A stretch of DNA of 64,000 nt from a virus: positions 64,001 to 128,000 of IMG/VR virus record IMGVR_UViG_3300009149_000012; one strand, written 5' to 3'. The translations under genes and the position numbers were made by a program. Under the pieces are notes generated by a model. The model saw only the letters and a list, made by a program, of their open reading frames with translations, was not told where the DNA came from and did no database searches. This document shows positions 15,324 through 59,095 of the stretch, in pieces (position 1 is the stretch's first letter; each line of letters starts with the position of its first letter).

Positions 15324-18300
15324 TTACCTCCGTCCCACGCTGCGCTCCGAGAACTGACCATGTCGGCGACTACGAGAGCGCTGGTAACGCGTAACACTCA
15401 TAGCTGACGCCGCATAAGGGGCTCCTGCAAACCTTCCGCCCTGAGCGATGAACTTCTTGTCTCCACGCCGGGCTTCACTCAAATGGACCGCTCGAACGAA
15501 GGCGTCGCTGAGATCGTCATGGGCGTCGACCACTTTCGGGGCCTCGACCACCACGAGGTTCTTGCTCACCTGGCGGGCCTGCAAGCTCAAAAGCTCTTGG
15601 ATGAGTTGGGAGTGCTTCTTTCCGACCAAGGGGTAGTCATACAGGCGCAAACGCTTGTCGTACATCAAGAGCTTGGCTTGCTGGAAGATCTTCGAAGACT
15701 GGTCACGGGTGAAGTATTGGCTGTTAAACTGCTTGAGCCCCATCTTGTGGAGCCGTTGCTCCAATGGGATGCCGTTCCACCGGTCGAACAGTCCGTCCGT
15801 GATGTAGAAGTGCTTGCAAAGAAGAGCGATCCAATCGGCGATTTCGTCGAAATCTAGCCGCTCGACATTCGAAAGCGTCTTGGCGTAGTTGGAGAGAGGT
15901 TCAACCAGGTGCGGGTTTGACTCACGCCAGTCGACCCCAGCCTGCCAGGTCTCATGGTAGTCGAGAACGACGTCCTCACCCTCAGGGTGGGTGATCACGA
16001 TGCCGGTGCCGTCGCCGACCAAACCAATGTCGATCCCCATCTGGTGAGGCGAGCGGGGCAGACCCCGGGTATGAGGCCGAAGATCTGGATCGATGCAGTC
16101 AAGCAAATCGGATTCACGCTCGATCCAACCCCGCATCTGATCGGAGAACATGGCGCCGTGCTCGACCATGAACACGGTCGGGTCGGCGTGGTACTTCTGC
16201 TTGTAGTAGGAAGACTCGACCGTGGGATTGATCTCCCACGTGGGGGCCTGGACAGCCAACAGGTTCTCGGAACCCTCTCCACCCCGCATCGCCTGGTCAA
16301 ATTTCTCCCAAAACAGACCGCTCTTGCCCAAGGGGCTGGAGATGAGGATGGTGCGAGCCTCGACAGGGCCGATTGCCACCTGGTTGTCTTCGGGGTCCTT
16401 CGGTGAGAAAGAAGCCGTCGACGGGGTGATGGCCTCGTAGATCTCTTTTGCAGAGGACGTTCCGTTATCCTGGAAGTGGGCGACTTCGTCCAAGATGATG
16501 ATGACGTTGCCGGCGCCACGAAGACCACGAGCGATGCAAGACTTGAACGTGACCCGGAGACTCGACTTGCCTTGGAAGCTCTGGAATGAGCCATCCTTGA
16601 CCCTGTTGATGGATCCGAACCGGTCGATCTCGTAGGGGGTACGGAAGTGGACGTGCGTCTGCGTGTTGTTGGCGATGTAGGGCGTGAAGTATTGGCACTT
16701 GGCAAGATGGCTCGCCACGTCGTTGTACAGAAGCCCCGCCTGATCCTTGTCGGTCGCCACCGAGATGATCTGCACCCGGTTGCCGTTGGGCAGACCGTAG
16801 TATTCCTGCGGATTGTACAGGTTCAGAAGCCGGTACACCTCGTAGCTCGCAAAGATGGCACTGAGGGTCGTGTTGTGGTTGGTCAAGCCGTTGGCTACGA
16901 AAGACGCCCCATCAGGCACGTTCAGATCGTAGACATGATCTTCACCCTCCTCGACAGACACGACAGGGTCGAAGAAATAGTCTTGGTGCAGCAAGTCCTC
17001 GAAGTGCTGCATTTCATCTTTCCCAGCGCCTAGTTCCCGAGCCACTTTCAGGGCCTCGACCATCCTGGTGTAAGTCAGATCCTCTTTTGAGCCAGGTTTG
17101 CACACGTTGCCCAAGGCTTTTCGGAGATGGGAACGGCCCCACCCCAGTTCCCCTCTCGCAGAATTACGCTTCGGAACGGACTTCAACAAGTTCCGCACCC
17201 TAGTGTACTGGTGGGGTACGCTCTCCGTGTTCGATTTACCTTCCTGGGCACGTTCAAGAGCTTCAAGCAAAGGTCCTTGCTTCTTCTCCGAGTCGAACCC
17301 CACAAGCTGGGCAAACCGACGTCGGGATCTCACACCCTTGATGCTCAGGTTAGCGTAGTGCCTTTTGGTTTTTCGGTTCCACTTGCGACCGATGTTCGAG
17401 ACGATCCCCAGGTTCAGGAGAAGTACCTGAACCTCATGGGCCAACCGAAAACTGGCCGAAGAGAACGTGATGTGGCGGCCCCCGCATTCGGCAGATCCGT
17501 CCGTCTCGAAAAGCCCCCGTAGAAACGCACACACCACATGGCGGGGCGACCGAAGGACCACCCACGGCACCATCTTGTCATAACGCCCACAGTCCGTCAC
17601 CCATCCGAGGTTAGCCAAGAACCGGCGCATCCCCACACTAGGAAATTCCAGTCGACCTGTCCCTTCTGTTCGCTGGTCCATCTGGACTCGATGTGACCCC
17701 AACAAGCTGTTGAACAGTTCTTTGAGCCGATCCCACGTCTCAGGGTGTTCCACTGTCATGGCGACACCCTGCGTGTGCGCCCAGCTACCGTCTCCGACAA
17801 GGTAGCCAAGAAGCAAGCCCCACTTTTCACTGAAAGTGTCAGGAAAAGACAGGTCCTTGTACCCGTCCGTGTTGTGGAACGGCTTAAGATCCACAAGGTC
17901 CTGAGACCATAGGTCAGTGGTCCGATTGACTGCCAGGTAGTCGCCGGGCCGGATGTTGTCCAGATACTTCCATTCCACGCAGCCTGACTCAGCCATCACC
18001 CTGACCCGGTGATTGCCCGTCCCCCGAACAGAGTAACCAGACCAACTCTTCACCGAGAAGGTTGGCTTCACACCACCGTCATAGAAAAAGGCGGATCTCG
18101 CTTGTCGCCCACCCTCTTGAGCCACCCCCACATTGAAGGATGTGGTGTCTTCCTCCGAAGCGCACGCCAAGTCCTTGATAGGGAACAAACCCAAGTCTGT
18201 CAAAACCAGGGTGTCGCCTGAAACACACTTGCCGGCCCGACGGCCGATCGGCAGGATAAGCTCACGCCGCTCGTGATCTTGTTCCCCGATGTTGCAGCGC

Positions 18301-18629
18301 CCCTCTTCGAACAGGTACTTCAGGAACTCTTTTTCGGTGAACCGATAGAGCACCTTGGTGTTGAACATATCCGTGACAGGAACGTTCTGTTCGGTGTCGT
18401 CTAGCTCCAAATGGTAGTAGAGCTTGACAAGAAAACGCTGGCCTGGGTACAGCCGCATCGACAGCCCCCACGGCTGTTCGATGTAGTCGATGATACTGAA
18501 GATGCGAGGGCCCTTTTGGCCTCCATCTTGAATTGTGCTTGAGGTGGTGATCGCATCACGCCGTGCGACCTGACCGGCTTTACGGATGAGGGAGCTTACG
18601 CCCGCCCCTTTGGTTTTGCGAGGCGGCAT
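15324..18629 (-). CDS. terL: Terminase large subunit with intein
   Basis: Walker A IGRRAGK|TT, Walker B IIILDEVAHF, ISSPLGKSG, nuclease MGIDIG and HDDLSDA. Confidence 0.92.
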   Translation of the reverse strand: MPPRKTKGAGVSSLIRKAGQVARRDAITTSSTIQDGGQKGPRIFSIIDYIEQPWGLSMRLYPGQRFLVKLYYHLELDDTEQNVPVTDMFNTKVLYRFTEKEFLKYLFEEGRCNIGEQDHERRELILPIGRRAGKCVSGDTLVLTDLGLFPIKDLACASEEDTTSFNVGVAQEGGRQARSAFFYDGGVKPTFSVKSWSGYSVRGTGNHRVRVMAESGCVEWKYLDNIRPGDYLAVNRTTDLWSQDLVDLKPFHNTDGYKDLSFPDTFSEKWGLLLGYLVGDGSWAHTQGVAMTVEHPETWDRLKELFNSLLGSHRVQMDQRTEGTGRLEFPSVGMRRFLANLGWVTDCGRYDKMVPWVVLRSPRHVVCAFLRGLFETDGSAECGGRHITFSSASFRLAHEVQVLLLNLGIVSNIGRKWNRKTKRHYANLSIKGVRSRRRFAQLVGFDSEKKQGPLLEALERAQEGKSNTESVPHQYTRVRNLLKSVPKRNSARGELGWGRSHLRKALGNVCKPGSKEDLTYTRMVEALKVARELGAGKDEMQHFEDLLHQDYFFDPVVSVEEGEDHVYDLNVPDGASFVANGLTNHNTTLSAIFASYEVYRLLNLYNPQEYYGLPNGNRVQIISVATDKDQAGLLYNDVASHLAKCQYFTPYIANNTQTHVHFRTPYEIDRFGSINRVKDGSFQSFQGKSSLRVTFKSCIARGLRGAGNVIIILDEVAHFQDNGTSSAKEIYEAITPSTASFSPKDPEDNQVAIGPVEARTILISSPLGKSGLFWEKFDQAMRGGEGSENLLAVQAPTWEINPTVESSYYKQKYHADPTVFMVEHGAMFSDQMRGWIERESDLLDCIDPDLRPHTRGLPRSPHQMGIDIGLVGDGTGIVITHPEGEDVVLDYHETWQAGVDWRESNPHLVEPLSNYAKTLSNVERLDFDEIADWIALLCKHFYITDGLFDRWNGIPLEQRLHKMGLKQFNSQYFTRDQSSKIFQQAKLLMYDKRLRLYDYPLVGKKHSQLIQELLSLQARQVSKNLVVVEAPKVVDAHDDLSDAFVRAVHLSEARRGDKKFIAQGGRFAGAPYAASAMSVTRYQRSRSRRHGQFSERSVGRR
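16872..18227 (-). mobile_element. Intein (~452 aa) with LAGLIDADG endonuclease in the TerL Walker A
   Basis: Starts CVSGDTLV; GTGNHRV; LLGYLVGDG and FLRGLFETDG; ends VYDLNVPDGASFVANGLTNHN|T. Confidence 0.95.
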
Positions 18630-24912: not shown

Positions 24913-25548
24913 TTAACAACACTCATCGCCGCCCCGCCCCGCCCACTGCGGGAGCTTCACCTCTCGCAAGATGTTGAACTTCTTTCCAGCAATTGCCGAA
25001 AAGATTTCGAGGTAGGGTTGTAGGGATTCGTTGGTGGGGGCCTTCTCACGAAGGGCAGCGACGGCACGGAAGAAACGATGGCGCACGCGACCTTGGGTCA
25101 GGCCAAGGGCTTCGGCGACTTCGCTCTGACACGTCGTTTCCCACATGCCGACCAGGATGTTGACGTCGATGCTGTCTTTGAAGAGTGTTGGAAGATCTCG
25201 GCGAAGTTCTTCCTCGGAGACGGAGGGGATGCTCAAGAGGAACTTGATCCGTTTGATCCCCCGGTCGAGACGGTAACTGACGGCTGCCTGCGTGATGCCA
25301 AAGATGATGGCGATGTCGGCCTGCCGCTTGTGGGAAATGAAGTACAGTTCGATGAGATCCGCTTCACGGGCTGGGATCCGGGGTAGGAGCGGGGCGACCT
25401 GTTCCTCGAAGGTTGGAACGTCGTCCGTTAGCTGTTCTGGCAGCGACTCCCCGTCCCACTCCTCGAAGAATTGGAGCAGTGTGTCGGGAGCAGCGAAGCG
25501 TGTTGCGATTTGTGCGGGGTCGAGAGGGATCACATAGCCACTGCTCAC
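24913..25548 (-). CDS. Tandem sigma70 region-4-like HTH protein
   Basis: IPAREADLIELYF..KRQADIAIIFGITQAAVSYRL and QSEVAEALGLTQGRVRHRF; GGAGG RBS. Confidence 0.7.
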   Translation of the reverse strand: MSSGYVIPLDPAQIATRFAAPDTLLQFFEEWDGESLPEQLTDDVPTFEEQVAPLLPRIPAREADLIELYFISHKRQADIAIIFGITQAAVSYRLDRGIKRIKFLLSIPSVSEEELRRDLPTLFKDSIDVNILVGMWETTCQSEVAEALGLTQGRVRHRFFRAVAALREKAPTNESLQPYLEIFSAIAGKKFNILREVKLPQWAGRGGDECC

Positions 25549-25557: not shown

Positions 25558-27342
25558 CTACTTGGCCCGGTTTCCACTCTTGAGGAACCCGGCAGACGGT
25601 CGAAAGAACGTTTCGAGAAAATCTTCGGGGTTCACATCTACATCTTGGAGGTGCTGCGTAGCAGCGGCCTCATCTTCACTCGGATCGACGGTCTCGAACG
25701 GAATGTCTGTCCGAATGGACATGAGATCTGCATTCAGCTTGACCCTGATCTCGGCATCACGCAATCGTTGGTACTGAGATTTGGTCACCCCGGCGAGTCC
25801 AGAAGCGAAGATTCCGTCGACAGTATCATGAGAACGTACCAGTGATGCAAGAATTTTCTTAGGAACACGGCCCACTCCGGGGAGATTGTCCGACGTATCC
25901 CCCGCAAGTGCCCGAAGAGAAACCATTTTCTCTGGGGGAACGTTGTACTCGAATTCGACCAAGTCAGGATCGAATAGGATCTCTTTTCGACCACCGACGG
26001 ACGGGACGAGAAGCACATCCGTGCGCGTCACAAGTTGAAGGAAGTCTCGGTCCGTCGAGATGATCACGTTCCGGTCGCCCTTGAGAGGGCCTCGAACCAA
26101 CGTTCCGATGACGTCGTCGGCCTCTTCCTCAGGGTGAAACGCCTGTGCAATGCCCAGGTTGGGGAGCAAGTTGTCTCGCAGGTAGGTAATCTGATCGAAA
26201 AGCGGCACCCCATGGGGCTTTCGATTGGCCTTGTACTCGGGATTCAAAGCCTTTCGCCGTTGACTCGACCCATCCCAGCACACGAAGAACATCGCGTCGT
26301 GATAGCGCTTGCGCAGTGCGCCAAGGCTTCGCAAAAACGCGTAGATCACACCGGTCGGCCGACCTTTTGAATCCGCTAGATCTTGCATGCCCGGTGCGTA
26401 CAACGCACGGAACGCCATGTTATGCCCGTCTACGATGATGTTGCTGATCATGTCGTCACCCTCGAATTCCTGACACCGTTGGTTTACACCGTCGATCCAG
26501 GACCACTTTCGGAAAGCGTCTCGAAGCGGAACCAAATCGAGACTGGGGATGGGCTTGTTCAAGATTTGAGTTTGTTCAAGCCACTGAGTCAGCATATGCC
26601 AGCGCTGTAGAAGGGCTGCCGCCTGAGACATGTCGAGCATGTCGACATCCTCTGCGATCTTCGAAGGCTGAAGCTGTTGGTAGAAGGACAATACCCGGGA
26701 GTATTCTTGAAAACCGTCCCGGATGGGCACGATCTGACCCGCCCACCCGGCTACGACCTGAGCCTCTTGTGCCCAAGCCTTCAACTCCTGCACTCGTTTC
26801 AAAAACGTCATAGGGCGAGCTTTACGAACCAGTTGCAAGAACGAACGGGGAAGGGTGAGCAGTGACTGCTTGGACCGAAGCTGCACGAAGACCTGGACGG
26901 ACTGTTTCTCTGGGATTTCCTCGACCACCGTCGCCTGAATGTTTCGGTAGGGGCCCGAAAGAATCAGAACTGTGTCGTCGACGCCGATCCCTTGATCTAC
27001 CTCAGCATTGGCCTGTTTTTTGAACTTGTTGATCTCCCGATCCGATATGGTCGCCAGGCAACGACACCGCCCCGTGCCTTGGGTTAAGATCGCCGCAACG
27101 TAACGATTCGAATTGGGGAGACGAAGGTAGTCGGAGTCGGGGCGCGTTCGCTGAGCAAACGCGTAGCCATCCACCAAGTAGTGCACCATGCGGTCGTCGC
27201 CGATCTGCGTGACGACGGCTGGGATGTACACCTCGGTGCCTCTCAACGCCTTGGAGATTGACCGTTGGAGAATCTCTGGATCCTCCCCATCACTTTTTGA
27301 GTTGAGGGCCAGCACGACCCAATCAGTCGTCATCAAGGCCAC
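25558..27342 (-). CDS. NusG (NGN+KOW)-5'-3' exonuclease (FEN/PolI N-terminal type) fusion
   Basis: N-terminal WVVL..EVYIP..LVDGYAF..DTVLILSGPYRNIQATV; C-terminal IVDGHN, WDG, EYKANR, EADDVI, STDRDFLQL, LAGDTSDNLPGV. Confidence 0.85.
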   Translation of the reverse strand: MALMTTDWVVLALNSKSDGEDPEILQRSISKALRGTEVYIPAVVTQIGDDRMVHYLVDGYAFAQRTRPDSDYLRLPNSNRYVAAILTQGTGRCRCLATISDREINKFKKQANAEVDQGIGVDDTVLILSGPYRNIQATVVEEIPEKQSVQVFVQLRSKQSLLTLPRSFLQLVRKARPMTFLKRVQELKAWAQEAQVVAGWAGQIVPIRDGFQEYSRVLSFYQQLQPSKIAEDVDMLDMSQAAALLQRWHMLTQWLEQTQILNKPIPSLDLVPLRDAFRKWSWIDGVNQRCQEFEGDDMISNIIVDGHNMAFRALYAPGMQDLADSKGRPTGVIYAFLRSLGALRKRYHDAMFFVCWDGSSQRRKALNPEYKANRKPHGVPLFDQITYLRDNLLPNLGIAQAFHPEEEADDVIGTLVRGPLKGDRNVIISTDRDFLQLVTRTDVLLVPSVGGRKEILFDPDLVEFEYNVPPEKMVSLRALAGDTSDNLPGVGRVPKKILASLVRSHDTVDGIFASGLAGVTKSQYQRLRDAEIRVKLNADLMSIRTDIPFETVDPSEDEAAATQHLQDVDVNPEDFLETFFRPSAGFLKSGNRAK

Positions 27343-28682
27343 GTCCGATCAAAGAGGGCCGTCCACTCGGCTGGCGACATGGTGGTGTTGAAGCCAACCG
27401 AGTCAAAGCGGGGTGGTGCGATAGCCTTCGCAGGCCGTGAGCCCCGGGGATGGTCCGCTGGAATCCCGTACGTGTCGACTTCCGTATGTGCGTACGGGTC
27501 GTCGCCCAGATTCCCAATGGTCTGGGGAAGCTTGGGTGCCGGTGTCGGGGTTGGTGCAGGGGTGGGCTGTGGTGCCACCTCGGAAGCCGCTTGTGGGGCA
27601 ACCGGTTGGGGAGCGGCAGGGACCATGAGCGGCGCGCTGAGAACCGGCTGCGCTACCGGAGCGGTCACAACCAAGATCGCCTCACACACGAGCGACGTTC
27701 GGGTAACAGATCGCAAGTTGGCGAACCTCGAAGCCAACCTGATCACTGAATCGCCGTACTTCTTGTGAACCTCTTCCGCCAAGGTTTTGTCCAGGGCAGA
27801 ATGGTCGACGAACATGTTGTTCGCCCACCGATACGAGTTCATGGCGGCTTCAGCGATTCCAGCGGCGACGTCACCGGGTTGCACCTGTTCACAAGCTGAC
27901 TCGATGAATGCCGCTGCTTGAGCCGGCGTGTCGAGCTTGAGCAAGATCTCGAAGTAAGTCTTGGTGAGGGACAGGCGCAGATAGCCCCGAACCGATTCGA
28001 GGGTGACGGGGCCCATCTGGGAGATCATCTCCAAACGGTTCATGACGTCCCGGACGTGACCCTGACAGTAGTCGATGACCGTGAGCACACCCTCATCCTC
28101 AAACTCGACGCCTTCAGCCTTGAGGATGAAAGCCATCCGCTCGAAGATGTCTTCCGGTGTGATGCGCCGAATCGAATGTTCTTCACAGCGAGAACGGATC
28201 GTCCCCCGGATCTTCTCGGGCTCGGTCGTGCAAAAGATGCCCACCATTCGCTTGTCTTCGATGGGCTTGAGCAAGACATCCTGCGAATCCCGACTCATTC
28301 GGTGCATTTCGTCGAACAGGAAGATCCGTTTGATGGCGTCAAGTACCGCAAAGGGCAGGTTGTCCACGATCGCCCGGATGTGCTCGATCGTTCCTTTGCT
28401 CGCTGCATCCAACTCGCTGAACGCCTGGCTGTTTTCCTCCAGGATGCTTATGCAGTTGTCGCATTCGTTGCAGGGCTCCTGATCCTCCGTCAAAGCCTGG
28501 CAGAGCAGTGCTCTCGCCAGAATTCGGCTAAGAGTTGTCTTGCCCTGTCCATGCCCCCCGCTGAAGATGTAGCTCGTGTTCAGGGCAGAACCGGACTTAA
28601 GGCGCGCTTTGAGGATTTGGATCGCACCTTCCTGCCCCAACACATCCGAGAACCTCAGCGGTCGGTACTTGACGTCCCACAT
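27333..28682 (-). CDS. dnaX: DNA polymerase III gamma/tau clamp-loader subunit
   Basis: KYRPLRFSDVLGQ, GGHGQGKTT, PCNECDNC, ELDAAS, DEMH, IRSRC. Confidence 0.93.
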   Translation of the reverse strand: MWDVKYRPLRFSDVLGQEGAIQILKARLKSGSALNTSYIFSGGHGQGKTTLSRILARALLCQALTEDQEPCNECDNCISILEENSQAFSELDAASKGTIEHIRAIVDNLPFAVLDAIKRIFLFDEMHRMSRDSQDVLLKPIEDKRMVGIFCTTEPEKIRGTIRSRCEEHSIRRITPEDIFERMAFILKAEGVEFEDEGVLTVIDYCQGHVRDVMNRLEMISQMGPVTLESVRGYLRLSLTKTYFEILLKLDTPAQAAAFIESACEQVQPGDVAAGIAEAAMNSYRWANNMFVDHSALDKTLAEEVHKKYGDSVIRLASRFANLRSVTRTSLVCEAILVVTAPVAQPVLSAPLMVPAAPQPVAPQAASEVAPQPTPAPTPTPAPKLPQTIGNLGDDPYAHTEVDTYGIPADHPRGSRPAKAIAPPRFDSVGFNTTMSPAEWTALFDRTWP

Positions 28683-28694: not shown

Positions 28695-29192
28695 CTAGCC
28701 GTGAGATTCCTGGCGTTCTTGCGTTGCCTCCGTTTGCTCGGGCTCGTCGAAATCGGCGATGTCGATCTGGGAGGCGATTTCGGTGAAGCCCTGCAAGTCC
28801 TCGTTCCATGCGCCGTGCCGACGAAGAATGGACGAGAATTCCTGCACGTCGTGGCTGCGCATGGACCACTTCATGGTGGCGCCCGGATCTTCCGGATCTT
28901 CCTCGCCGAAGCAATGCTCCAACTCGTGGTCGACAAGCGCCGTCCGTTGCTCGGCCGTCATGGGGTTCCACTGGTCCAGCGCGACCATGACCACGAAGTC
29001 CAGGTCCAACAGGAACTGGTTGACGCCCGTGATCTTTGTTGCGCTGGCTGCCGTGATCTTGCCGCCCTTCGTCGACGCCTTGTCAACGAACACGTACCGG
29101 ATCCTTGCCGTTGCCAGGTGGGGGTGATGGGTTGGGATGAGCACGTTCGCCAATGCCTCAACCGCTTCTGCATTCTCGTAAGTCTTAGCCAT
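28695..29192 (-). CDS. Putative phage metallopeptidase
   Basis: ALVDHELEH HExxH motif plus HDVQEF..I.RRHG. Confidence 0.75.
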   Translation of the reverse strand: MAKTYENAEAVEALANVLIPTHHPHLATARIRYVFVDKASTKGGKITAASATKITGVNQFLLDLDFVVMVALDQWNPMTAEQRTALVDHELEHCFGEEDPEDPGATMKWSMRSHDVQEFSSILRRHGAWNEDLQGFTEIASQIDIADFDEPEQTEATQERQESHG

Positions 29193-30404: not shown

Positions 30405-31089
30405 CTGACCCCCTTGCCAGCCGAATGGAGAGGTGTCTGGCGCCGTCCTCGACCACCTGAGAGCAATGGTAGGCTCTCTTGGCATAGGTGGCGTAGGAGC
30501 GTTGCTGCGTCACGAGAAGCACATCCAAAGCGCTGCGGTCGGCTAGCTTTCGCAAAAACTCAGCGGCGCCCTCGATATATTCCGGGGAGATGGCACCAAG
30601 CGTCTCGTCAAGAAACAGCATTGGAGCCCGACGAAGCCGTAGCAAAGTGAGGATTCGAAGAATCAGGGAGGCCACGCTTGAGGGACCACCCCCGAACGCT
30701 TCCAAGGGGTTGTCTCGGATCTCGACCCGATCCCCCTGTTGAACGACGAAAAACTCGATCGAAACCTTGTTGTACTTCGTCGAGACTTCTGCCTCGAAGC
30801 GTAGGTTCTGATCTGGGAAGATTGCCTGAAGCCCCTCAGTGACGATCGACTCGATGCTGCGCATGTGATCGACCACCAACTGATCCATGAGCGCACGGAA
30901 AAGCTCACCGACCTTGAGGAGGCGTGTCTGACGCTCTTCAAGGTCCGTGATCTCCTGCCTTTTGGCACCTAATTCCGTCGCTACGTGATCCCGAAGCGTG
31001 ATGAGACGAGTCCGGTTGGCTGACAAACGCTCGACACGCCCGGATAGATCACTCAGAGGTAGGACGGCATGTACCGAGTCAGCACACAC
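30388..31089 (-). CDS. SbcC/Rad50 C-terminal half (coiled coil, signature, Walker B)
   Basis: FGGG signature variant, LFLDETLGAIS, LLVTQ. Confidence 0.75.
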   Translation of the reverse strand: MCADSVHAVLPLSDLSGRVERLSANRTRLITLRDHVATELGAKRQEITDLEERQTRLLKVGELFRALMDQLVVDHMRSIESIVTEGLQAIFPDQNLRFEAEVSTKYNKVSIEFFVVQQGDRVEIRDNPLEAFGGGPSSVASLILRILTLLRLRRAPMLFLDETLGAISPEYIEGAAEFLRKLADRSALDVLLVTQQRSYATYAKRAYHCSQVVEDGARHLSIRLARGSDAKRE

Positions 31090-32300
31090 TTGTGTACACC
31101 GTCCTTCGTGCTGTCGGCTTCGACCTTGCCTGCGTCGTCCAAGAGGTACTCATCGATGGTCCGGAACAGGGCGGTCTCGCGCCCATCCTTCGTCACCAAA
31201 TACACCCGAAGCTCAACTTGGTGGCTGCGCATGCTGTCGACGAGCTTCATGAAGTGCTCGAAATGCACATTTGCAGCGAAACCACCCACATGACCCCCGC
31301 CTTCGCCGACGTCGGTGTTGTGGTGAGTCAGTTCAACCGGAAGGTGGCTGGTACCCTTGCTGGAGCTTGCCGCCGCATGGAACACGAGCGTCGATTTATC
31401 GAGATCGAACGTCACACGCATCTTGGTGGACTTGCCCAGGTACGGACGAACCAGGTTTAGACAGCCGAGAAGCGCTGCCCGGTCGACCATCAAAACGTAC
31501 TGGTCGTACTTGCGGTGATAGTAGGTGAACTTCGGGAAAACCTCTGCCAGATGCGTCCAGCCAAGGAAGGCGCCCGTCTCGTCCTCCAAGAACGAATAGC
31601 CCTTCCCGATCCGGAGCTTGACAGTCTTGCCGCACTTACCGAGGAACGAGATGATGCTGGGCAAGTGCTCCGAAAACAGAGCCATGTGCTTGCCCTTGAA
31701 GATATCCGTCTTGAAGTAGAAGCTGCGGGTGCCGTCCGACGTCTGAAGGAAGCCGTCGCCCTTGGCGAAATCCTTCACGTTCTTGTCGAACATCTGAGCC
31801 GTGTTCCAGGTCGACACCTCACCCGTGTACTTGGCAAGGTACGGACGCGACCCCGACAGCGCCTCGACCAGGATGGCCGTGGGGAACTCCTGCACATCGG
31901 TCGCCGCAGCGTAGTCCTTGTCCCGGGTTGAGACCATCCGAGGATCGATCGTGGATGTCTCGGCGCTGCCATGGTCGCTGCTATGGGAGACCGTGTGGCC
32001 TTCCGCCTTCGCAACCACCTCGAAGCTCAAGATATCACCCGCATGCTGCAAGGACGCTGCGAGAGCCGCTGGGAAAGTGAACGAACCTTCCCCGTCCTCT
32101 TTCTCCACATCCGACACCTTGAACGAGGCTCGTGCGACTCGCTGAACATCCGTGGAGTAGACTTCGCAAGTGTCGTCCTTGACGTTGAACAGGTACGCAA
32201 CCCCCTCCATGGAATCGCTACTCGTGATGGGGCTGGGTGTCACCACCCCCACCACAGCGGTCGCTGCCAACAGGTCGTTTTTGTGAACCTTGAACTTCAT
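31053..32300 (-). CDS. dnaN: Sliding clamp (DNA polymerase III beta-like)
   Basis: MKFKVHKNDLL start; repeated STD/TSDG motifs; FPKF; size; clamp loader genes nearby. Confidence 0.7.
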   Translation of the reverse strand: MKFKVHKNDLLAATAVVGVVTPSPITSSDSMEGVAYLFNVKDDTCEVYSTDVQRVARASFKVSDVEKEDGEGSFTFPAALAASLQHAGDILSFEVVAKAEGHTVSHSSDHGSAETSTIDPRMVSTRDKDYAAATDVQEFPTAILVEALSGSRPYLAKYTGEVSTWNTAQMFDKNVKDFAKGDGFLQTSDGTRSFYFKTDIFKGKHMALFSEHLPSIISFLGKCGKTVKLRIGKGYSFLEDETGAFLGWTHLAEVFPKFTYYHRKYDQYVLMVDRAALLGCLNLVRPYLGKSTKMRVTFDLDKSTLVFHAAASSSKGTSHLPVELTHHNTDVGEGGGHVGGFAANVHFEHFMKLVDSMRSHQVELRVYLVTKDGRETALFRTIDEYLLDDAGKVEADSTKDGVHKCVLTRYMPSYL

Positions 32301-52089: not shown

Positions 52090-52266
52090 TCAACTCTTTG
52101 ATCGATATTCGTCACGAAGTAGCGGGAGGGAGTAGCGAAACGATTGCTCGGCCATGGCGCTTCGGGACAGACCCTTGGCCTTGGCGGCGGCTTCCAACAG
52201 TTCCAAGGCTTCCTCACTCAGCGCGATGGAAAGCTTGACCTTCTTCTTTCGCTTCGGAGCTTTCAT
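52090..52266 (-). CDS. Ribbon-helix-helix (CopG-like) DNA-binding protein
   Basis: KLSIALSEEALELLEAAAKAKGLSRSAM. Confidence 0.7.
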   Translation of the reverse strand: MKAPKRKKKVKLSIALSEEALELLEAAAKAKGLSRSAMAEQSFRYSLPLLRDEYRSKS

Positions 52267-52351
52267 GGCGGAAAACAGAGGAGTCGAACCCCCAACCTTT
52301 CGGTCGCCCCGGTGTTCAAGACCGGTTGCCCACCACTGAGCAGTGTCTTCC
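52266..52351 (-). tRNA. tRNA-Ser(TGA)
   Basis: Cloverleaf with long V-arm; CCGGT-CT TGA AC-ACCGG; encoded CCA. Confidence 0.9.
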
Positions 52352-52355
52352 GTAG

Positions 52356-52438
52356 AGGAGAATAGAGGAGTCGAACCTCCGACCTTGCGGTCGCCCCAGT
52401 GTTCGAAACTGGTTGCCAGCCACCTAGCGGTATTCTCC
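52356..52438 (-). tRNA. tRNA-Ser(CGA)
   Basis: Paralogue of the adjacent Ser tRNA; CCAGT-TT CGA AC-ACTGG. Confidence 0.85.
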
Positions 52439-52460
52439 ATGGGCCTTGCGGCCCAACCCA

Positions 52461-53966
52461 TCACCAGTTCTTGCTAATGCGGTTCTTGGTGATGCGTTTC
52501 TTGACGGGATCCGAGTTTGTGCTTTCCGATTCAGGCGGGGAAACCTCGTAGACGGGCGTGTTGGCATCCGGCGTGTGGACTGCCGGGACCACGAACATCG
52601 AAGCCGCAGCATCCGAGTCGACCGCAAAGTCCTCCGAAAGCTGCTGTTGAGAAGCGTTGCAGGACACAACCCCAAGCTCCTGAAGGTCGGCAGAGGCATC
52701 CGAATCGGCCGAGAAGGTTCCGTAGCCTGCCGACATGCCCCGGCCCACGCTGCGCAGGTAGCCTTGGCCTTCGTTGAAGTTCTCGCTGGTTGCCATCCGT
52801 TGACCAAGACGCTGGCTCACGTTGGCGACCCCGACATGACCCCGGCGCTGGGCGCTTTCAGTGTGGACACGCATGATTGACTGCGCCTGGGCGAAGTTGC
52901 CGTTGTTGGCCTGTTCTTCGGCTTCAAGCTGCGCCTTGGCCGTTTGAGCCAAGACCACGATGGCGTCGACGTCCTTGGTCGGCAAGTCCTGCTGTTCGCC
53001 GTTCTTGACGAACCGGACCTTGGCTTTGATGTCTTCGTTGTGATCCAACTTTTTGCCGTCCTTGTCGAGGCAACTGTACTTGACGTTCACCTCGAAGGCG
53101 TTGACGGCACGAGGGAAAGCTTGCTTTTGCTCTTTGAACTTGATCAAGAACACGAGGTGACGCGTTTCCTCAGCGAGAAGGTCAGGCGTCTGGACACTCA
53201 CTTCGCCGGTCACTTCCTCTTCAACGTCGGCATCCGAGATGCACTCAACGATCTGGTGACCGTTGAGGGGTTTGACTTCCAACGTGACGTCGGTTGCGTA
53301 GGTCGACACCAGCCCGCCAAGCTCTTTGCCGAAGGCGGCGAGAGCCGAGTCAGGGTTCTCGATGTAGGCGTAGTTGCCCTTGCCCTCTTTGGACCACTCG
53401 GTCAGAAGCTTTTGGTCGCAGTCACGGGCGTTGCCGTAGCCGAAAGCGCTGACAGACACCCGACCTCGGTTGGCTTCCAAGAGCTTGAGCAGTTCAGGAG
53501 CGCGCTGAGCGACGCCGCAGTTGGCGTAGCCGTCCGTGAACATGATGGCCCGGTGGATGATGTCCGAGCCCAGGTCCATGGAGTTCATCAACTCGACGGC
53601 CTTCAGGAAGCCGCCAGAAAAGTTGGTGCTCCCGCCAGGGGTGAGCTTGTTGACTTCGGCCTTGAGCAGTTCCTTGGTCTGAGGCGTGATCTCGGTCGGG
53701 GGGTAGGACCGCACACGGTCATCAAACGCCACGAGCCCACAGTAGTCGCCTTCCTGAAGGTGGTCGATGAGCTTGAGGACGGAACGCTTGGCGTACTCCA
53801 TCTTGTTGCCCATGCCCATGCTGCCGGACACGTCCATGACCGGCATCACGAAGATGCGGGGCCGTTTGGCGGTCGCCGACGGGGCGGTGAGGCTGATCAC
53901 AAGGTGGGCGTCGGTGTCGACGTCATGACGGACTTGGTCAAATGTATGGCGAGCTTCAATCTTCAT
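52461..53966 (-). CDS. von Willebrand factor A domain protein
   Basis: MIDAS DVSGSM, GGSTN, FTDG, FGYG. Confidence 0.9.
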   Translation of the reverse strand: MKIEARHTFDQVRHDVDTDAHLVISLTAPSATAKRPRIFVMPVMDVSGSMGMGNKMEYAKRSVLKLIDHLQEGDYCGLVAFDDRVRSYPPTEITPQTKELLKAEVNKLTPGGSTNFSGGFLKAVELMNSMDLGSDIIHRAIMFTDGYANCGVAQRAPELLKLLEANRGRVSVSAFGYGNARDCDQKLLTEWSKEGKGNYAYIENPDSALAAFGKELGGLVSTYATDVTLEVKPLNGHQIVECISDADVEEEVTGEVSVQTPDLLAEETRHLVFLIKFKEQKQAFPRAVNAFEVNVKYSCLDKDGKKLDHNEDIKAKVRFVKNGEQQDLPTKDVDAIVVLAQTAKAQLEAEEQANNGNFAQAQSIMRVHTESAQRRGHVGVANVSQRLGQRMATSENFNEGQGYLRSVGRGMSAGYGTFSADSDASADLQELGVVSCNASQQQLSEDFAVDSDAAASMFVVPAVHTPDANTPVYEVSPPESESTNSDPVKKRITKNRISKNW

Positions 53967-54159
53967 GGGATTCCTCCGTACACGTTATCGGTCGGTGCCA
54001 TCAACGCAGAGCCGGACATGCTCCCATAATCAATGACGTGCCTTACGATCGTCCTCAGTGTCTCCAAAACCCTTTCGGGCGCGATTCACTGTACGGGGAC
54101 TCAACCTATGAAGGCGCATCCCCTTGCAGAAGCCATCCTCTCAAAGATGACTTTTGATG

Positions 54160-54417
54160 TCAAGCGTGTTTTTCACACCGCCACTGAAGTCGACCAAGAG
54201 AGTCTCGGCCGATGATCCGACGTGTCGCCGGTTCTCCACACAGAAACTTGAGTTTGCTAGACCGACACTTGTAAATCTTCACATGGCGCCTGCCCCGGGG
54301 CAGGCCCCCGGTTTGAGCGTAACCGCACACGAGGCACTTGGAGCACTGCCAGTAGCGATCTGGCTTTTCACCAAGCGGGATTCCTCGAAGGGGCTGCCAG
54401 TCATGTTCGCAATCCAT
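54160..54417 (-). CDS. Small Cys/His-rich protein
   Basis: CEHDW..CSKC..C..C..CEKH. Confidence 0.45.
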   Translation of the reverse strand: MDCEHDWQPLRGIPLGEKPDRYWQCSKCLVCGYAQTGGLPRGRRHVKIYKCRSSKLKFLCGEPATRRIIGRDSLGRLQWRCEKHA

Positions 54418-54436
54418 GCGGCCGACACTAGCACAG

Positions 54437-54523
54437 CGGAAGCAGGAGGTATCGATCCCCAAGCAGCGTGAGCCGCTCGTACACGTTTCCAACGTGTCCC
54501 GTACCCTGTACGGTTCAGCTTCC
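54437..54523 (-). tRNA. tRNA-Ser(GGA), atypical T-loop
   Basis: GGAAGC acceptor; ACACG-TT GGA AA-CGTGT; long V-arm; T-loop ATCGATA. Confidence 0.75.
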
Positions 54524-54784
54524 AGGCAGGGTCTCGTAGGTCGCCAATTGCTGGGACCACAAGACCCCTTCGATCCACCCAAGGGCTCCCGCTGCGGCGA
54601 GCGAGTTGCCTTCCCGGGCGATTCTCAAAACGTTCGGGATCATCCAGAGCACGTGGCACAGGACTTCCATCCGTTCCGGGATCTTGCCCGGGAGCGTGTA
54701 TTGCTTCGGAGTAGCACCCGCCTCTTGAAGCAAATCACGGTACTTCTCAAGAGCCCGCTCGAAATGAGGATCACTTGGTGCCAA
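54515..54784 (-). CDS. Hypothetical protein
   Basis: HVLWM...LGWIEGVLW motif. Confidence 0.55.
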   Translation of the reverse strand: MAPSDPHFERALEKYRDLLQEAGATPKQYTLPGKIPERMEVLCHVLWMIPNVLRIAREGNSLAAAGALGWIEGVLWSQQLATYETLPGS

Positions 54785-55286
54785 GGTACCACGTCCATTG
54801 CTCGGGAGCGTTGTTCATCGGGATGGGAGGCGGGGTGAGCGGCAGCGTCTTGGGCTGGACCGGCTTTTTCAGCAGCCGCATCCCTGCTTGCTGCGGCGTG
54901 CGACCCGCTTTGCGGTTGTTGCACGGGTAGCAACACGTCACGATGTTCGTCCACACAGTCTTCCCACCTTGGGAGCGAGGGATGACGTGGTCGTAGTTGA
55001 GCTTGCTCATCGTCGCCTTCGTTCCGCAATACTGGCAAACGAACTTGTCCCGGGTCATCACGTTGATCCGAGAGAACTTCACAGCCTTTTTGCGAGCCGA
55101 AACCGTCTTCGTGAGTCGAGCCACGGCGGGAATGCTCATCTCCACCGAAGGACTACGGACCGTTTCCTCATACTCTTCCAGCACCTCGATCTTGCCCATC
55201 CACAGCAAGCACACGGCTTGCTCCCAGGGTACGATCCGGTGAGGCTGGAAGCCTTGAGTCAGGATAAGTGTGTGGGATGAAGCCAT
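54771..55286 (-). CDS. HNH endonuclease (McrA-like)
   Basis: RDKFVCQYCG..DHVIPRSQGG..WTNIVTCCYPCNNRK. Confidence 0.9.
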   Translation of the reverse strand: MASSHTLILTQGFQPHRIVPWEQAVCLLWMGKIEVLEEYEETVRSPSVEMSIPAVARLTKTVSARKKAVKFSRINVMTRDKFVCQYCGTKATMSKLNYDHVIPRSQGGKTVWTNIVTCCYPCNNRKAGRTPQQAGMRLLKKPVQPKTLPLTPPPIPMNNAPEQWTWYLGTK

Positions 55287-55344
55287 GATAAGCCTACCGT
55301 TTCTTTTTCCGCATCATTCAGCCTTGTTTACACCGTGGAATTAG

Positions 55345-55701
55345 TGGAGTCGCCGGGAATCGAACCCGGGTCCGAAAAACATCGTTTCAATCCGTCTACG
55401 TGCGTAGCCCTTCTACCCTCGGGCGGGGTTTGCCGATCTTCCAACCGACATGGGGATTTTCATTGTCTTGATCGGGGGTTATCGACACGTCCCTCAATTT
55501 TGCCCCGAAGCATCCTGTGTGGGTTGACGTCGCCGGGGTACTCAGGACCCTTCCCGTTTGACGGACACTACGCTGCTGCGAGCATCAGGTTACCATTATC
55601 GTTGGCAATTGACGTTCCACCTGTTTGATCATGGCTGTTCAGGTGGCTCAGCCAGCACGCGAGATCGAACCTCCATCCTCCGTCGAAACCAAGTCGACCC
55701 C
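55345..55701 (-). ncRNA. ssrA: tmRNA, tag (A)ANDNGNLMLAAA
   Basis: 5' GGGGTCGA..TTCGAC; 3' GGTTCGATTCCCGGCGACTCCA; tag ORF 55606-55568 ending TAG. Confidence 0.93.
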
Positions 55702-55746
55702 AAATGAGTCAAGAGAAGTTACACCGAGTTGATGCACCCGGCAAGC

Positions 55747-55833
55747 TGGTAGGGGTGACAGGAGTCGAACCTGCACGCCACGAAGGGCACCTGAACTTAA
55801 ACCAGGCGTGTCTGCCAGTTTCACCACACCCCC
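55747..55833 (-). tRNA. tRNA-Leu(TAA)
   Basis: Canonical class II cloverleaf; CCA. Confidence 0.92.
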
Positions 55834-55834
55834 G

Positions 55835-56038
55835 TCAGACGCAGGCTTCCCCAGCCTGGGAGAGCCTCAAGACACTGTGAGGCACGTCGCACTGCAAGAC
55901 GTAGTCGAACCGAGTCGAGACCACGTAGTGCAGCAACCCCTTCTCGACCAAGGCATCCCGCACCCGCTTGGTGGGGAAGCGACCCTGCATGGTCTTGAAG
56001 TATTCGAGAGCGGCTCGTTGGGGGGTTGTGATCTTCAT
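55835..56038 (-). CDS. Small hypothetical protein
   Basis: GAGGG RBS; lies between tRNAs. Confidence 0.5.
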   Translation of the reverse strand: MKITTPQRAALEYFKTMQGRFPTKRVRDALVEKGLLHYVVSTRFDYVLQCDVPHSVLRLSQAGEACV

Positions 56039-56080
56039 GCACCCTCTAAGACAGCCGAGCCGCCTCAATCAACCGAAAGT

Positions 56081-56167
56081 TGGTGGCAACGGGGGGAGTC
56101 GAACCCCCACGCTCACATGGAGCACCTGGGTTTGAGCCAGGCGTGTCTGCCATTTCACCACGTTGCC
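56081..56167 (-). tRNA. tRNA-Leu(CAA)
   Basis: Canonical class II cloverleaf; CCA. Confidence 0.92.
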
Positions 56168-56171
56168 AAAA

Positions 56172-56340
56172 GCGAGAGCTAACAGGACGGAGCAGAGATG
56201 CTCGGGTAGGGGCGATGAAAATGGAGTAACCGACTTGATAGTGGAAGAACTGTCGGTGTTCCAGATTGAAGTTTTTCGCACACTTTCCCGATTTGCCGTG
56301 AGCGTCTTTCAACGCTTATTGTAGGTAGGTCTTCTCTCGC
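56172..56340 (-). ncRNA. Candidate structured RNA downstream of the DIP1984-like gene
   Basis: Closing stem GCGAGAG/CTCTCGC; internal AGCGTT-GAAA-GACGCT, CCGAC/GTCGG and GAGCA-TCTC-TGCTC. Confidence 0.55.
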
Positions 56341-56358
56341 CTCGTTTCCGCCCCCGGA

Positions 56359-56862
56359 TTACTCCGGGAGGGTTACGTTCATTTCGATTTCGGTCAGGTT
56401 GCCCTTGGCGATGGCGGCTCGAATGACCGCCGCTTCTTTCGCCGCCTGGTTGGCGAACTTCAAGGCTTGTGCCTGGGTGACCATGCGCTTGGCCCGGACC
56501 TCGTTGGGGTCACGGGTGAGCGTTTCGTCCCGGTAGCTGTAGCGGTCTTTCTTGACCCCGGCGACGCTTCGCCACATCTTCTCCAACCGACCCGCACCGC
56601 CGACGCTCTTGATCGCTTCGGTGAGGGTCATCGTGTCGGAGCCAACTTCAACACGAACCTGCATGTTGTAGTCGGTCTGCGCCGTCTGAAGCTTGGCGAC
56701 CATCACATCATACGCATGGAACTTGTCAGCGATCTGCTGAGGCGTTTCCTTGTCGTCATCCTCGAAGGCGTGAAGCGAGCCATCGAAAAGGGAAGCCGTC
56801 GTGTCTCGAACCATCACAGTTCGTTTGATTGCGTCTTTCAGAATGTGTCCGGTAACTTTCAT
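56359..56862 (-). CDS. DIP1984/DUF6847-like helical protein
   Basis: KLQ.AQ..YN..V.V....MTLTEAI and C-terminal I..AI..GN..EI pattern, recognised from memory. Confidence 0.6.
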   Translation of the reverse strand: MKVTGHILKDAIKRTVMVRDTTASLFDGSLHAFEDDDKETPQQIADKFHAYDVMVAKLQTAQTDYNMQVRVEVGSDTMTLTEAIKSVGGAGRLEKMWRSVAGVKKDRYSYRDETLTRDPNEVRAKRMVTQAQALKFANQAAKEAAVIRAAIAKGNLTEIEMNVTLPE

Positions 56863-56881
56863 GGTCGTCCTCTGATCTGAT

Positions 56882-57610: not shown

Positions 57611-58115
57611 GATGTAATTCCTTCCAGATCCACGTTGCCCAAATCTCTCGTCCCTTGAAGGTCGGGTGAAGTTGGTCCTCCCACATGGGAATGGTCACAG
57701 GCCTGGAATCAAGATACACCACGCCGGTTTCCAAGATGAGGTTGCGGACGTAGGTCGGACGGATCGACAAGGGAAGCTTGGGCATCCCCACCCACACGAG
57801 CCGTATGCCAGTTTGCCCCATCCGACGGTGGAACCGAGCCATGAAGGGCCCCGTCTGCACGTGAGGCTTCATGTAGGCGTCGTTGGCGCCGAGCACGATG
57901 ACGACCAACGTAGGCCGAAACCGGCGCAAAGGCGTCAGGTCTGCTGTCGACCACGAGATGATGCTGGTACCTGGCACCGTGTCAGATCCGAAGGCATGGC
58001 CCTCGGTGACCGCAAGCTTTCACAAGGGCTCCACGAGACCATGCGCCAGCGAATCACCCGTGAGCCAGATTCGGTCCCCCGGATGCACGAGCGCTGCGAG
58101 TAGCAACGGCCACAT
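57543..58115 (-). pseudogene. SGNH/GDSL hydrolase with an in-frame TGA at 58020-58022
   Basis: GDSL (block I) upstream of the stop; LGAND (block III) and DQLHP (block V) downstream in the same frame. Confidence 0.75.
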
Positions 58116-58285: not shown

Positions 58286-58366
58286 GGTCCGCTGAGAAGG
58301 AATCGAACCTTAAGCTCTGGCACCTTATAAGGATGCTGCTGGCAAGCCCAGCCAGCGCCTCAGCGG
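58285..58366 (-). tRNA. Atypical tRNA with TAT anticodon (Ile?)
   Basis: CCGCTGAG/CTCAGCGG acceptor; 6-bp D-stem; GCATC-CT TAT AA-GGTGC; TTCGATT; ACCA. Confidence 0.7.
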
Positions 58367-58742: not shown

Positions 58743-58762
58743 GCGATGTCCTACACCGGGCC

Positions 58763-59077: not shown

Positions 59078-59095
59078 GGGGTTGATTTACACCGG

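What the first reader, a model, noticed from the sequence alone, without database searches (positions are those of the whole stretch)
25558..27342. NusG (NGN-KOW) fused to a 5'-3' exonuclease: a possible RNAP-tethered nuclease
Seen: one uninterrupted 594-aa ORF. It has a NusG NGN domain and KOW motif (aa ~5-170), a helical linker with three ~33-aa quasi-repeats (IVPIRDGFQEY.., MSQAAALLQRW.., LVPLRDAFRKW..), and a FEN/PolI-type 5'-3' exonuclease with its acidic catalytic motifs. Known: NusG/Spt5 binds elongating RNAP, and in eukaryotes (Xrn2/Rat1) and archaea (aCPSF1/FttA) ribonucleases acting with Spt5 drive termination. FEN-type phage enzymes such as T4 RNase H and T5 exonuclease degrade RNA in hybrids and flaps. 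Inference: this could be a phage torpedo-like terminator, a co-transcriptional R-loop or host-mRNA degrader, or a replication-transcription coupler. I know of no characterised protein with this architecture.
Basis: partly seen in the sequence, partly recalled or inferred. Interest (0 to 1): 0.88.

Follow-up and report, generated by a model that had tools for sequence, protein, structure and literature searches.

The report
Huge-phage NusG fused to flap nuclease
An uncultured huge phage joins a copy of NusG, the factor that rides on RNA polymerase, to its only DNA flap nuclease in one protein; relatives repeatedly split and re-join the same two parts and keep a start codon at the joint, which points to an undescribed, testable link between phage transcription and DNA replication.

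Summary
The ORF is on the minus strand (25558-27342; likely start ATG 27333, 591 aa). It reads NGN + KOW (NusG fold), a poorly conserved spacer of four W-containing helical repeats, and a complete PolI-type 5' nuclease (FEN). It is no assembly error: more than 120 full-length protein clusters and 55 distinct fused IMG/VR loci, on contigs up to 529 kb, share the design and the gene order clamp loader, NusG-FEN, sigma-4-like protein.

What I add here:
- Five (near-)complete relatives have one FEN and one NusG-like module each, a family-A polymerase (checked in four) and no recognisable RNA polymerase.
- The same slot holds four designs: NusG alone; NusG|FEN; NusG+spacer|FEN; and all fused. Fission or fusion recurred at least four times at one joint.
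- Fused genes keep an in-frame ATG/GTG/TTG with a Shine-Dalgarno-like sequence at that joint, so a free FEN isoform is likely.

Best reading (about 0.45): a specialised NusG paralogue that places the phage's replication nuclease on host RNA polymerase, plus free FEN for Okazaki maturation. A torpedo terminator is unlikely. No paper in the searched library describes it. This scan has already found the same family in at least eight other genomes.

The parts
25558..27342 (-). Whole ORF: 594 codons from GTG 27342. The likely start is ATG 27333-27331, giving 591 aa. Stop codon at 25558-25560.
26998..27330 (-). NGN domain (aa 5-115). W8, G59, Y60 and F62 are invariant and align with the NusG motifs KKKW and PGYVFV.
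26824..26982 (-). KOW domain (aa 121-173). The most conserved part of the protein (65% mean identity). The loop LRSK...LPRSFL is nearly invariant.
26452..26817 (-). Helical spacer of four ~30-aa W-containing repeats (aa 176-297). Only 17% mean identity, and its length varies among homologues.
26449..26463 (-). In-frame internal start candidate: GAGGGTG (26463-26457), then ATG 26451-26449 (M298). Would give a 297-aa free FEN.
25957..26439 (-). 5'-3' exonuclease N-terminal (resolvase-like) domain, aa 302-462, with the invariant carboxylates and the EYKANR arch.
25690..25941 (-). 5'-3' exonuclease H3TH/SAM-fold domain, aa 468-551 (GDTSDNLPGV).
25576..25632 (-). Conserved C-terminal tail motifs: NPEDFLETFF (PIP-box-like, consensus xPxx[IL][IL]xxFF) and GFLKS (consensus GFxK[ST]). 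Their partner is unknown.
27333..28682 (-). Upstream neighbour: clamp loader (DNA_pol3_delta2/AAA). Its stop overlaps the ATG of the fusion gene.
24913..25548 (-). Downstream neighbour: 211-aa protein with sigma-70 region-4-type HTHs and no region 2. It follows the NusG-like gene in essentially every relative.
31053..32300 (-). Phage beta-type sliding clamp, 415 aa, recognisable only with a family profile.

Best explanation
The gene encodes a specialised, phage-borne NusG paralogue. Its NGN-KOW module is extended by a spacer of W-containing helical repeats and carries the phage's only PolI-type flap endonuclease.

Inferred mechanism:
1. The NGN domain docks on the beta' clamp helices of the HOST RNA polymerase, as all NusG-family proteins do. 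It acts as a processivity/antitermination factor for the phage's long, co-directional operons.
2. The flexible repeat spacer holds the FEN near the upstream fork of the elongation complex. There the FEN can cut 5' RNA or DNA ends in RNA:DNA hybrids and flaps that arise where transcription and replication share a template (R-loops, transcript-primed strands).
3. An internal start at M298 also yields free 297-aa FEN for ordinary Okazaki-primer removal at the phage replisome.

Shown: the domain identities, an intact active site, conservation of the fusion, its place in the replisome operon, a single FEN per genome, recurrent fission at the joint, and a conserved start codon there.
Inferred: RNAP binding, use of the internal start, and the nuclease's substrate when it sits on RNAP.
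For: - NGN+KOW identity: profile hit to NusG across both domains, E 1.2e-12. Fold matches to NusG, RfaH and Spt5 in RNAP complexes. The NGN motif residues W8, G59, Y60 and F62 are invariant.
- Stand-alone relatives score as weak UpxY, LoaP, RfaH or NusG.
- FEN is intact: Pfam hits above cut-off, nine invariant carboxylates, and a fold match to M. smegmatis FenA at E 2e-19.
- The fusion is conserved: more than 120 full-length clusters at 42-71% identity and 55 distinct fused loci in IMG/VR.
- Host RNAP is the likely target. Five (near-)complete relatives (436-529 kb) give no Pfam hit for RNAP beta, RNAP beta' or T7-type RNAP. Some encode sigma-70 region-2 proteins.
- Replication role: there is one PF02739 hit per genome, and relatives have a family-A polymerase. 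The operon holds primase, clamp loader and beta clamp. The gene is coupled to the clamp-loader stop by a TGATG overlap.
- Internal start: the codon at position -4 from the FEN motif (V/I/L)3-DG is ATG in 30, GTG in 6 and TTG in 2 of 55 loci. Positions -10 to -5 are highly variable.
- SD pairing upstream of that codon averages -5.0 kcal/mol, against -3.0 for 475 other in-frame ATGs (p 7e-8, not corrected for phylogeny).
- Split relatives start their separate FEN gene at the same spot, with GTGA or 4-nt overlaps.
Against: - No binding to RNAP was or could be tested.
- The covalent link is not essential: at least four lineages inside the fused clade have split the gene. Deeper relatives have NusG|FEN without a spacer, or NusG followed directly by the sigma-like gene with no FEN.
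- The module misses all curated NusG, RfaH, LoaP and UpxY cut-offs.
- The spacer is only 17% conserved and is modelled at pLDDT 46-79 per 10-residue block.
- phiKZ-type RNAPs are very divergent and might escape the Pfam models, so 'no phage RNAP' is not proven.
- No expression data exist.
Confidence: 0.45

Rival explanations
1. Two independent functions that happen to be joined. A NusG-like antiterminator, working with the neighbouring sigma-like factor, and an ordinary Okazaki-maturation FEN are adjacent, translationally coupled genes. Small indels fuse and separate them with no mechanistic consequence, and the working nuclease is the free form.
For: - Four architectures occupy the same slot, and starred branches force at least four fused/split changes.
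- A start codon and SD-like sequence are retained at the joint.
- The invariant neighbour of the NusG-like gene is the sigma-like gene, not the FEN.
Against: - The fused state dominates the clade (49 of 78 representatives) and persists down to about 35% identity.
- The repeat spacer arose in the same clade in which fusions occur, and it keeps nearly invariant W190, W282 and R289.
- Repeated fusion of the same pair is the classic signature of interacting partners (established 'Rosetta stone' reasoning).
Confidence: 0.27
2. A coupler between sliding clamp and RNA polymerase that makes late transcription depend on replication (T4 gp45/gp33/gp55 logic with different parts). The C-terminal xx[IL][IL]xxFF tail binds the phage beta clamp, or the FEN binds nicks and flaps. 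The NGN binds the beta' clamp helices, which is the sigma region-2 site. The adjacent region-4-only protein supplies the beta-flap and promoter contact.
For: - The gene order clamp loader, NusG-FEN, sigma-4-like protein is conserved at the border with the structural genes.
- The neighbour has region-4 HTHs but no region 2.
- A PIP-box-like C-terminal motif is conserved.
- The phage has its own beta clamp.
- NGN and sigma region 2 share the beta' clamp-helix site (established knowledge; NGN contacts are described in bioRxiv 10.1101/324400).
Against: - No other ORF in the 149-kb record carries the tail motif.
- The relatives' family-A polymerase shows no [ILMV][ILMV]xx[FYW][FYWL] motif in its last 120 residues.
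- NusG-family proteins are not known to act in initiation.
Confidence: 0.12
3. The NGN-KOW module has been re-purposed and does not bind RNA polymerase. It anchors the FEN to a replisome or ribosome component, for example through the very conserved KOW loop.
For: - KOW is the best conserved part (65%), with a loop (LRSK) unlike the NusG loop in the T. maritima alignment.
- The gene lies in the replisome operon.
- Scores lie below all curated NusG-family cut-offs.
Against: - The NGN signature residues are invariant.
- Every structurally similar protein found is an RNAP-bound factor.
- The constant pairing is with a sigma-like gene.
Confidence: 0.08
4. A torpedo-type terminator or co-transcriptional host-mRNA degrader. 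The tethered nuclease chews the nascent RNA 5'-3' and dislodges the polymerase.
For: - The architecture recalls Spt5 working with Rat1/Xrn2 or FttA. Those complexes appear among the fold hits for the KOW/NGN part only.
Against: - The nuclease is a PolI/FEN-type enzyme and no XRN or beta-CASP domain is present. By established knowledge such enzymes act on flaps and duplex 5' ends, not on long single-stranded RNA.
- It is the phage's only FEN.
- Relatives make it as a free protein.
Confidence: 0.04

Closest known systems
Specialised NusG paralogues (RfaH, LoaP, UpxY, ActX/TaA) and housekeeping NusG/Spt5
   Same: Two-domain NGN + KOW architecture and fold. Conserved NGN motifs (W8; GY-F). Encoded by a mobile element with very long operons, where NusG paralogues typically act as operon-specific antiterminators (review PMC7819879).
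   Different: Scores far below every curated cut-off. It carries a ~120-aa helical repeat extension and, in most members, a covalently attached nuclease. The KOW loop reads LRSK. RNAP binding is untested.
PolI-type 5' nucleases / bacterial and phage FENs (M. smegmatis FenA, E. coli ExoIX, Taq 5' nuclease, T5 D15, T4 RNase H)
   Same: Pfam 5_3_exonuc_N + 5_3_exonuc, all metal-binding carboxylates, the YKANR arch and H3TH. Fold match at E 2e-19. It is the sole FEN beside a polymerase that lacks its own 5' nuclease, as in T5, T7 and SPO1-like phages.
   Different: The partner domain is fused at the N-terminus, whereas in Pol I the partner follows the nuclease, and that partner is a transcription factor. 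The tail carries a PIP-like motif.
DNA-processing enzymes tethered to RNA polymerase (Mfd, UvrD/PcrA through Tudor/KOW-like domains)
   Same: The same concept: a nucleic-acid enzyme held on RNAP to deal with transcription-replication or repair conflicts. This comparison is from my own knowledge and was not tested here.
   Different: Those enzymes use a Tudor-like domain that binds the beta subunit and are helicases or translocases. Here a complete NusG module carries a nuclease.
T4 late-transcription coupling (gp45 clamp, gp55, gp33)
   Same: Clamp, clamp loader and sigma-fragment-like genes are functionally linked, and replication-dependent late transcription is an attractive analogy.
   Different: No sequence relationship was shown. 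Clamp binding is untested. The RNAP-binding piece here is NusG-like, not sigma-region-2-like.
Spt5 with Rat1/Xrn2 or archaeal FttA (torpedo termination)
   Same: A NusG/Spt5-family factor cooperates with a 5'-3' nuclease.
   Different: An unrelated nuclease fold with different substrate logic. The association there is non-covalent.

Membership tests
NusG/Spt5 superfamily | NGN alpha/beta domain | tested here: met
   Model pLDDT 93.6. RfaH NGN Z 9.5 over 97 aa. E. coli NusG NGN Z 7.9 over 90 aa. All top Foldseek hits are NusG, RfaH or Spt5.
NusG/Spt5 superfamily | C-terminal KOW beta-barrel with the KOW motif | tested here: met
   Pfam KOW at 22.3 bits, equal to its cut-off. T. maritima NusG KOW Z 11.2, rmsd 1.2 A.
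NusG/Spt5 superfamily | Sequence-profile homology across both domains | tested here: met
   Profile A2 against PDB: NusG 2lq8, E 1.2e-12, profile positions 1-153 on chain residues 3-159.
NusG/Spt5 superfamily | NGN binds the RNAP beta' clamp helices | not testable with these tools
Housekeeping NusG (TIGR00922 / PF02357) | Score above the curated cut-off | tested here: not met
   TIGR00922 18.8 bits against 135.7. PF02357 was not reported for this protein.
RfaH / LoaP / UpxY specialised paralogues | Score above the curated cut-off | tested here: not met
   UpxY 19 against 100 bits. LoaP 14.1 against 125. RfaH not listed.
PolI-type 5'-3' exonuclease / FEN | PF02739 + PF01367 above cut-off, metal-binding carboxylates, arch and H3TH motifs | tested here: met
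   111.4 and 52.7 bits. D305, D357, E407, D409, D410, D431, D433, D482 and D485 are invariant. FenA fold match at E 2e-19.
Torpedo exoribonucleases (XRN family; beta-CASP RNase J/FttA) | XRN or metallo-beta-lactamase/beta-CASP catalytic domain | tested here: not met
   Pfam and fold searches of the whole protein find only FEN-family and NusG-family matches.
Clamp-coupled transcription factors (T4 gp33/gp55 type) | Terminal clamp-binding peptide that binds the phage clamp | tested here: inconclusive
   A conserved PIP-like tail exists. No other ORF of the record shares it, and no [ILMV][ILMV]xx[FYW][FYWL] motif lies in the last 120 residues of the relatives' polymerase.

The most novel reading that the evidence does not exclude
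The NusG-spacer-FEN protein is a physical bridge between the phage replisome and host RNA polymerase. Together with the adjacent region-4-only protein it forms a split, sigma-like late-transcription apparatus. The NGN occupies the beta' clamp-helix site normally used by sigma region 2. The FEN and its PIP-like tail read out nicks, flaps or the loaded beta clamp. Late genes are therefore transcribed only from replicating DNA. This would be an independent invention of T4-style replication-coupled transcription, built from a NusG and a flap nuclease.
Probability: 0.12. Interest if true: 0.88.

Novelty: new variant of a known kind. Interest (0 to 1): 0.68.

Why it matters
NusG/Spt5 is the only transcription factor family conserved in all life. 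Its known partners are ribosomes, Rho, and RNA-processing or chromatin factors. A NusG that carries a DNA-replication nuclease would be a new type of cargo, and a direct physical link between transcription and replication.

It is found in a widespread clade of 400-530-kb phages that appear to rely on host RNA polymerase. The family offers natural 'experiments' (fused, split with spacer, split without spacer, NusG alone). It also has a probable nested start. Together these make the question testable with standard biochemistry.

If the tether is real, it suggests how giant phages police R-loops or transcript-primed DNA on genomes that are transcribed and replicated at once. If it is not, the family is still a clear case of recurrent gene fusion and fission at a conserved internal start.

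Tried and rejected
Nothing was folded.
- ESM Atlas look-up of the spacer (aa 176-298) gave no usable hit.
- A single-sequence PDB search with the clamp gave nothing. Only the family profile did.
- No RNA holder was listed among the public runs. The only good holder is a subsurface metagenome that may be the source sample.
- A consensus scan found no sigma-70-type promoter and no minus-strand terminator between clamp loader and sigma-like gene.
- The C-terminal motifs were searched in all ORFs of the 149-kb record. Only the fusion has them in a credible ORF.
- The INPHARED phage collection has no full-length relative. It has a single distant NusG-like hit in an uncultured 485-kb phage, LR745208.1, so no cultured model system was found.
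- Literature searches found no description of a NusG-FEN fusion. One query was rejected for syntax.
- Family searches for PolIII-alpha and PolB in the relatives were negative. Family A was positive.
- My first two regex screens of the loci missed more than half of them because the motif was too strict. This was corrected.
- Labels in the tree come from length and motif rules. A few 'NusG+ext' rows are probably truncated or divergent fused proteins. I therefore rely on the four split lineages checked on contigs.
Full report
**What is there.** The finding's coordinates hold one open frame on the minus strand (25558-27342). It begins with GTG. The ATG three codons further on (27333-27331) overlaps the TGA stop of the upstream clamp-loader gene by one base (TGATG). 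It is also the start of the 591-aa database entry, so 591 aa is the likelier product. The window lies in an IMG/VR virus record of 148,881 bp that CheckV rates 31% complete. The window also carries 18 tRNAs and a tmRNA and an intein-bearing large terminase. This is a fragment of a huge phage.

**Domains: the nuclease.** Pfam places a 5'-3' exonuclease N-domain at aa 302-462 (E 4.8e-32) and its H3TH/SAM domain at aa 468-551 (6e-14). In an alignment of 43 full-length homologues, nine carboxylates are invariant: D305, D357, E407, D409, D410, D431, D433, D482 and D485. So are the EYKANR arch motif and GDxSDN. The full-length AlphaFold model (pLDDT 85) matches M. smegmatis FenA (E 2e-19), E. coli ExoIX, the Taq 5' nuclease, T5 FEN and T4 RNase H.

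**Domains: the NusG-like module.** With single-sequence HMMs the N-terminal assignment is weak. KOW sits exactly at its cut-off, and NusG, UpxY and LoaP score far below theirs. It becomes firm at profile and fold level:
- An exhaustive search with aa 1-300 found about 60 fused proteins plus many 160-190-aa stand-alone relatives covering aa 6-172. Ten of these were scanned, and most score weakly as NusG, UpxY, LoaP or RfaH.
- A profile of these sequences hits T. maritima NusG over both domains at E 1.2e-12, followed by many NusG and Spt5 chains.
- The model of aa 1-175 (pLDDT 93.6) retrieves NusG, RfaH or Spt5 in all 20 top Foldseek rows. VIA-align gives Z 11.2 (rmsd 1.2 A) for the KOW and Z 9.5 (97 residues) for the NGN against RfaH.

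**Domains: the spacer.** Residues 176-297 form four ~30-aa helical repeats with a conserved tryptophan (hhalign 84-97%). They are poorly conserved (17% mean identity, against 47% for NGN, 65% for KOW and 59% for FEN). Their length varies among homologues.

**Not an artefact.**
- More than 120 protein clusters align over 96-99% of the length at 42-71% identity. They sit on contigs up to 421 kb, and JGI's pipeline already labels some '5'-3' exonuclease/transcription antitermination factor NusG'.
- A scan of IMG/VR returned 77 loci on contigs up to 529 kb, with 55 distinct fused junction sequences.
- Gene order is conserved: primase, metallopeptidase, clamp loader, NusG-FEN, sigma-region-4 protein, then structural genes.
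- The sigma-like neighbour is 52-65% identical across loci, more conserved than the fusion itself.
- A 415-aa gene a few kb upstream is a beta-type sliding clamp, shown only by a family profile (DnaN hits at 6e-6 and 2.6e-5).

**Genome context in complete relatives.** In five relatives that are 94-100% complete (436-529 kb), there is exactly one FEN match and one NusG-like match per genome. They lie in the same ORF in four and in adjacent ORFs in one. Four of these were searched for polymerases. They have a family-A DNA polymerase, and because each genome has only one 5'-nuclease match, that polymerase has no nuclease domain of its own. PolIII-alpha and PolB were not found. No RNAP beta, RNAP beta' or T7-type polymerase was detected. 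Two of the genomes encode sigma-70 region-2 proteins. The phage therefore appears to replicate with its own replisome, whose only primer-removal nuclease is this protein, and to transcribe with host RNA polymerase. One caveat applies: very divergent phage RNAPs could escape the Pfam models.

**Four designs in one slot.**
1. NusG-like gene followed directly by the sigma-like gene, with no FEN between (L083; LR745208.1).
2. NusG-like (170-206 aa) then a separate FEN (321-333 aa), with overlapping stop and start and no spacer (L079; L082).
3. NusG plus repeat spacer (308-386 aa) then a separate FEN of 289-297 aa. Examples are L084 (GTGA overlap, seen on three contigs), L086, L088 and L089. L071 has overlapping frames.
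4. The full fusion.

A FastTree of the NGN-KOW part puts all spacer-bearing forms, fused or not, in one clade (support 98) nested among the short forms. Well-supported branches force at least four fused/split changes. That tree is quick and midpoint-rooted, and its labels are rule-based. I therefore checked four split lineages on contigs.

**A start codon at the joint.** I anchored the fused loci on the FEN motif (V/I/L)3-DG. The codon four positions upstream is ATG in 30, GTG in 6 and TTG in 2 of 55 distinct loci. Nearly all the rest have an ATG two to ten codons upstream. Positions -10 to -5 are highly variable (entropy 3.2-3.7 bits, against 2.3 at position -4).

Predicted pairing with the anti-Shine-Dalgarno sequence upstream of this codon averages -5.0 kcal/mol. 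For 475 other in-frame ATGs in the same genes it averages -3.0 (Mann-Whitney p 7e-8, not corrected for relatedness).

In the window the site is GAGGGTG-N5-ATG at 26463-26449 (M298). It would give a 297-aa FEN, the size of the separate FEN in split relatives, whose genuine start lies at the same position. This supports an earlier first-reader note (e1-5861629). Whether the start is used remains an inference.

**How it most likely works.** Established knowledge of the family says an NGN domain binds the beta' clamp helices and bridges the cleft at the upstream fork of the elongation complex (bioRxiv 10.1101/324400). Specialised paralogues make long or foreign operons Rho-resistant (PMC7819879). 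PolI-type FENs cut 5' flaps and remove RNA from 5' ends in duplexes.

My best reading (about 0.45) has three parts. The NusG-like module is a phage antiterminator for host RNAP, working with the adjacent sigma-like factor. In the fused form it holds the phage's replication nuclease on a flexible repeat tether at transcribing polymerases. There the nuclease can clear RNA:DNA hybrids, or process transcripts used as primers, on DNA that is replicated and transcribed together. Free FEN from the internal start serves Okazaki maturation.

The main rival (about 0.27) is that the link has no mechanistic meaning, because the gene splits readily. Against this, the fused state predominates and persists to about 35% identity, and the spacer arose in the same clade. 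A T4-like clamp-to-RNAP coupler (about 0.12) is suggested by the gene order, the region-4-only neighbour and a conserved PIP-like tail. A torpedo terminator or mRNA degrader is unlikely (about 0.04).

**Novelty.** Full-text searches found no paper on a NusG-FEN fusion or on NusG in huge or jumbo phages. The NusG review does not mention fusions or phage-encoded members. No cultured phage in INPHARED has it. The same family has been reported by this scan in at least eight other genomes, with similar verdicts. I class it as a new variant of known kinds: a new architecture built from two well-known families.

Noticed in passing
window 24913-25548 (-): A 211-aa protein with two sigma-70 region-4-type HTHs and no region 2. 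It follows the NusG-like gene in essentially every relative and is more conserved (52-65% identity) than the fusion itself. It has a conserved C-terminal FNILxEVKLPQW..RG motif. It is a candidate partner of the NusG-like module.
   Followed up: partly
window 31053-32300 (-): A 415-aa protein with no Pfam hit and only a weak PHROG hit (phrog_947, DNA polymerase processivity factor, E 8.2e-05). A family profile shows it to be a beta-type (DnaN-like) sliding clamp, longer than cellular clamps.
   Followed up: partly
window 52266-63164 (-): A cluster of 18 tRNA genes and a tmRNA (55344-55701, tag ANDNGNLMLAAA), all on the minus strand.
   Followed up: no
window 15324-18629 (-): A large terminase subunit interrupted by an intein with a LAGLIDADG homing endonuclease (1101 aa).
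   Followed up: no
window 25576-25632 (-); tails of L002-L076: Two conserved C-terminal motifs in the FEN of the spacer-bearing clade: xPxx[IL][IL]xxFF (PIP-box-like) and GFxK[ST]. FENs of spacer-less relatives end differently (PDWL[KA]DI). The binding partner is unknown.
   Followed up: partly
L093/L094 (G001, 512-kb relative): The family-A DNA polymerase lies in a 1422-aa open frame, and the Pfam match is split into two pieces about 1.3 kb apart. This suggests an intein or other insertion. In three other relatives the open frame is 930-1030 aa.
   Followed up: no
L071:6001-8029: In a 448-kb relative the NusG+spacer ORF (380 aa, with a highly basic tail) and the FEN ORF (349 aa) overlap by 164 nt in different frames. 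This could be a real split, a sequencing frameshift or programmed frameshifting. The same basic tail recurs in P0143 and P0154, which argues for a real variant.
   Followed up: partly
window 28695-29192 (-): A PhageMetallopep-family gene is conserved between primase and clamp loader in all relatives examined. This is an unusual constant member of a replisome operon.
   Followed up: no
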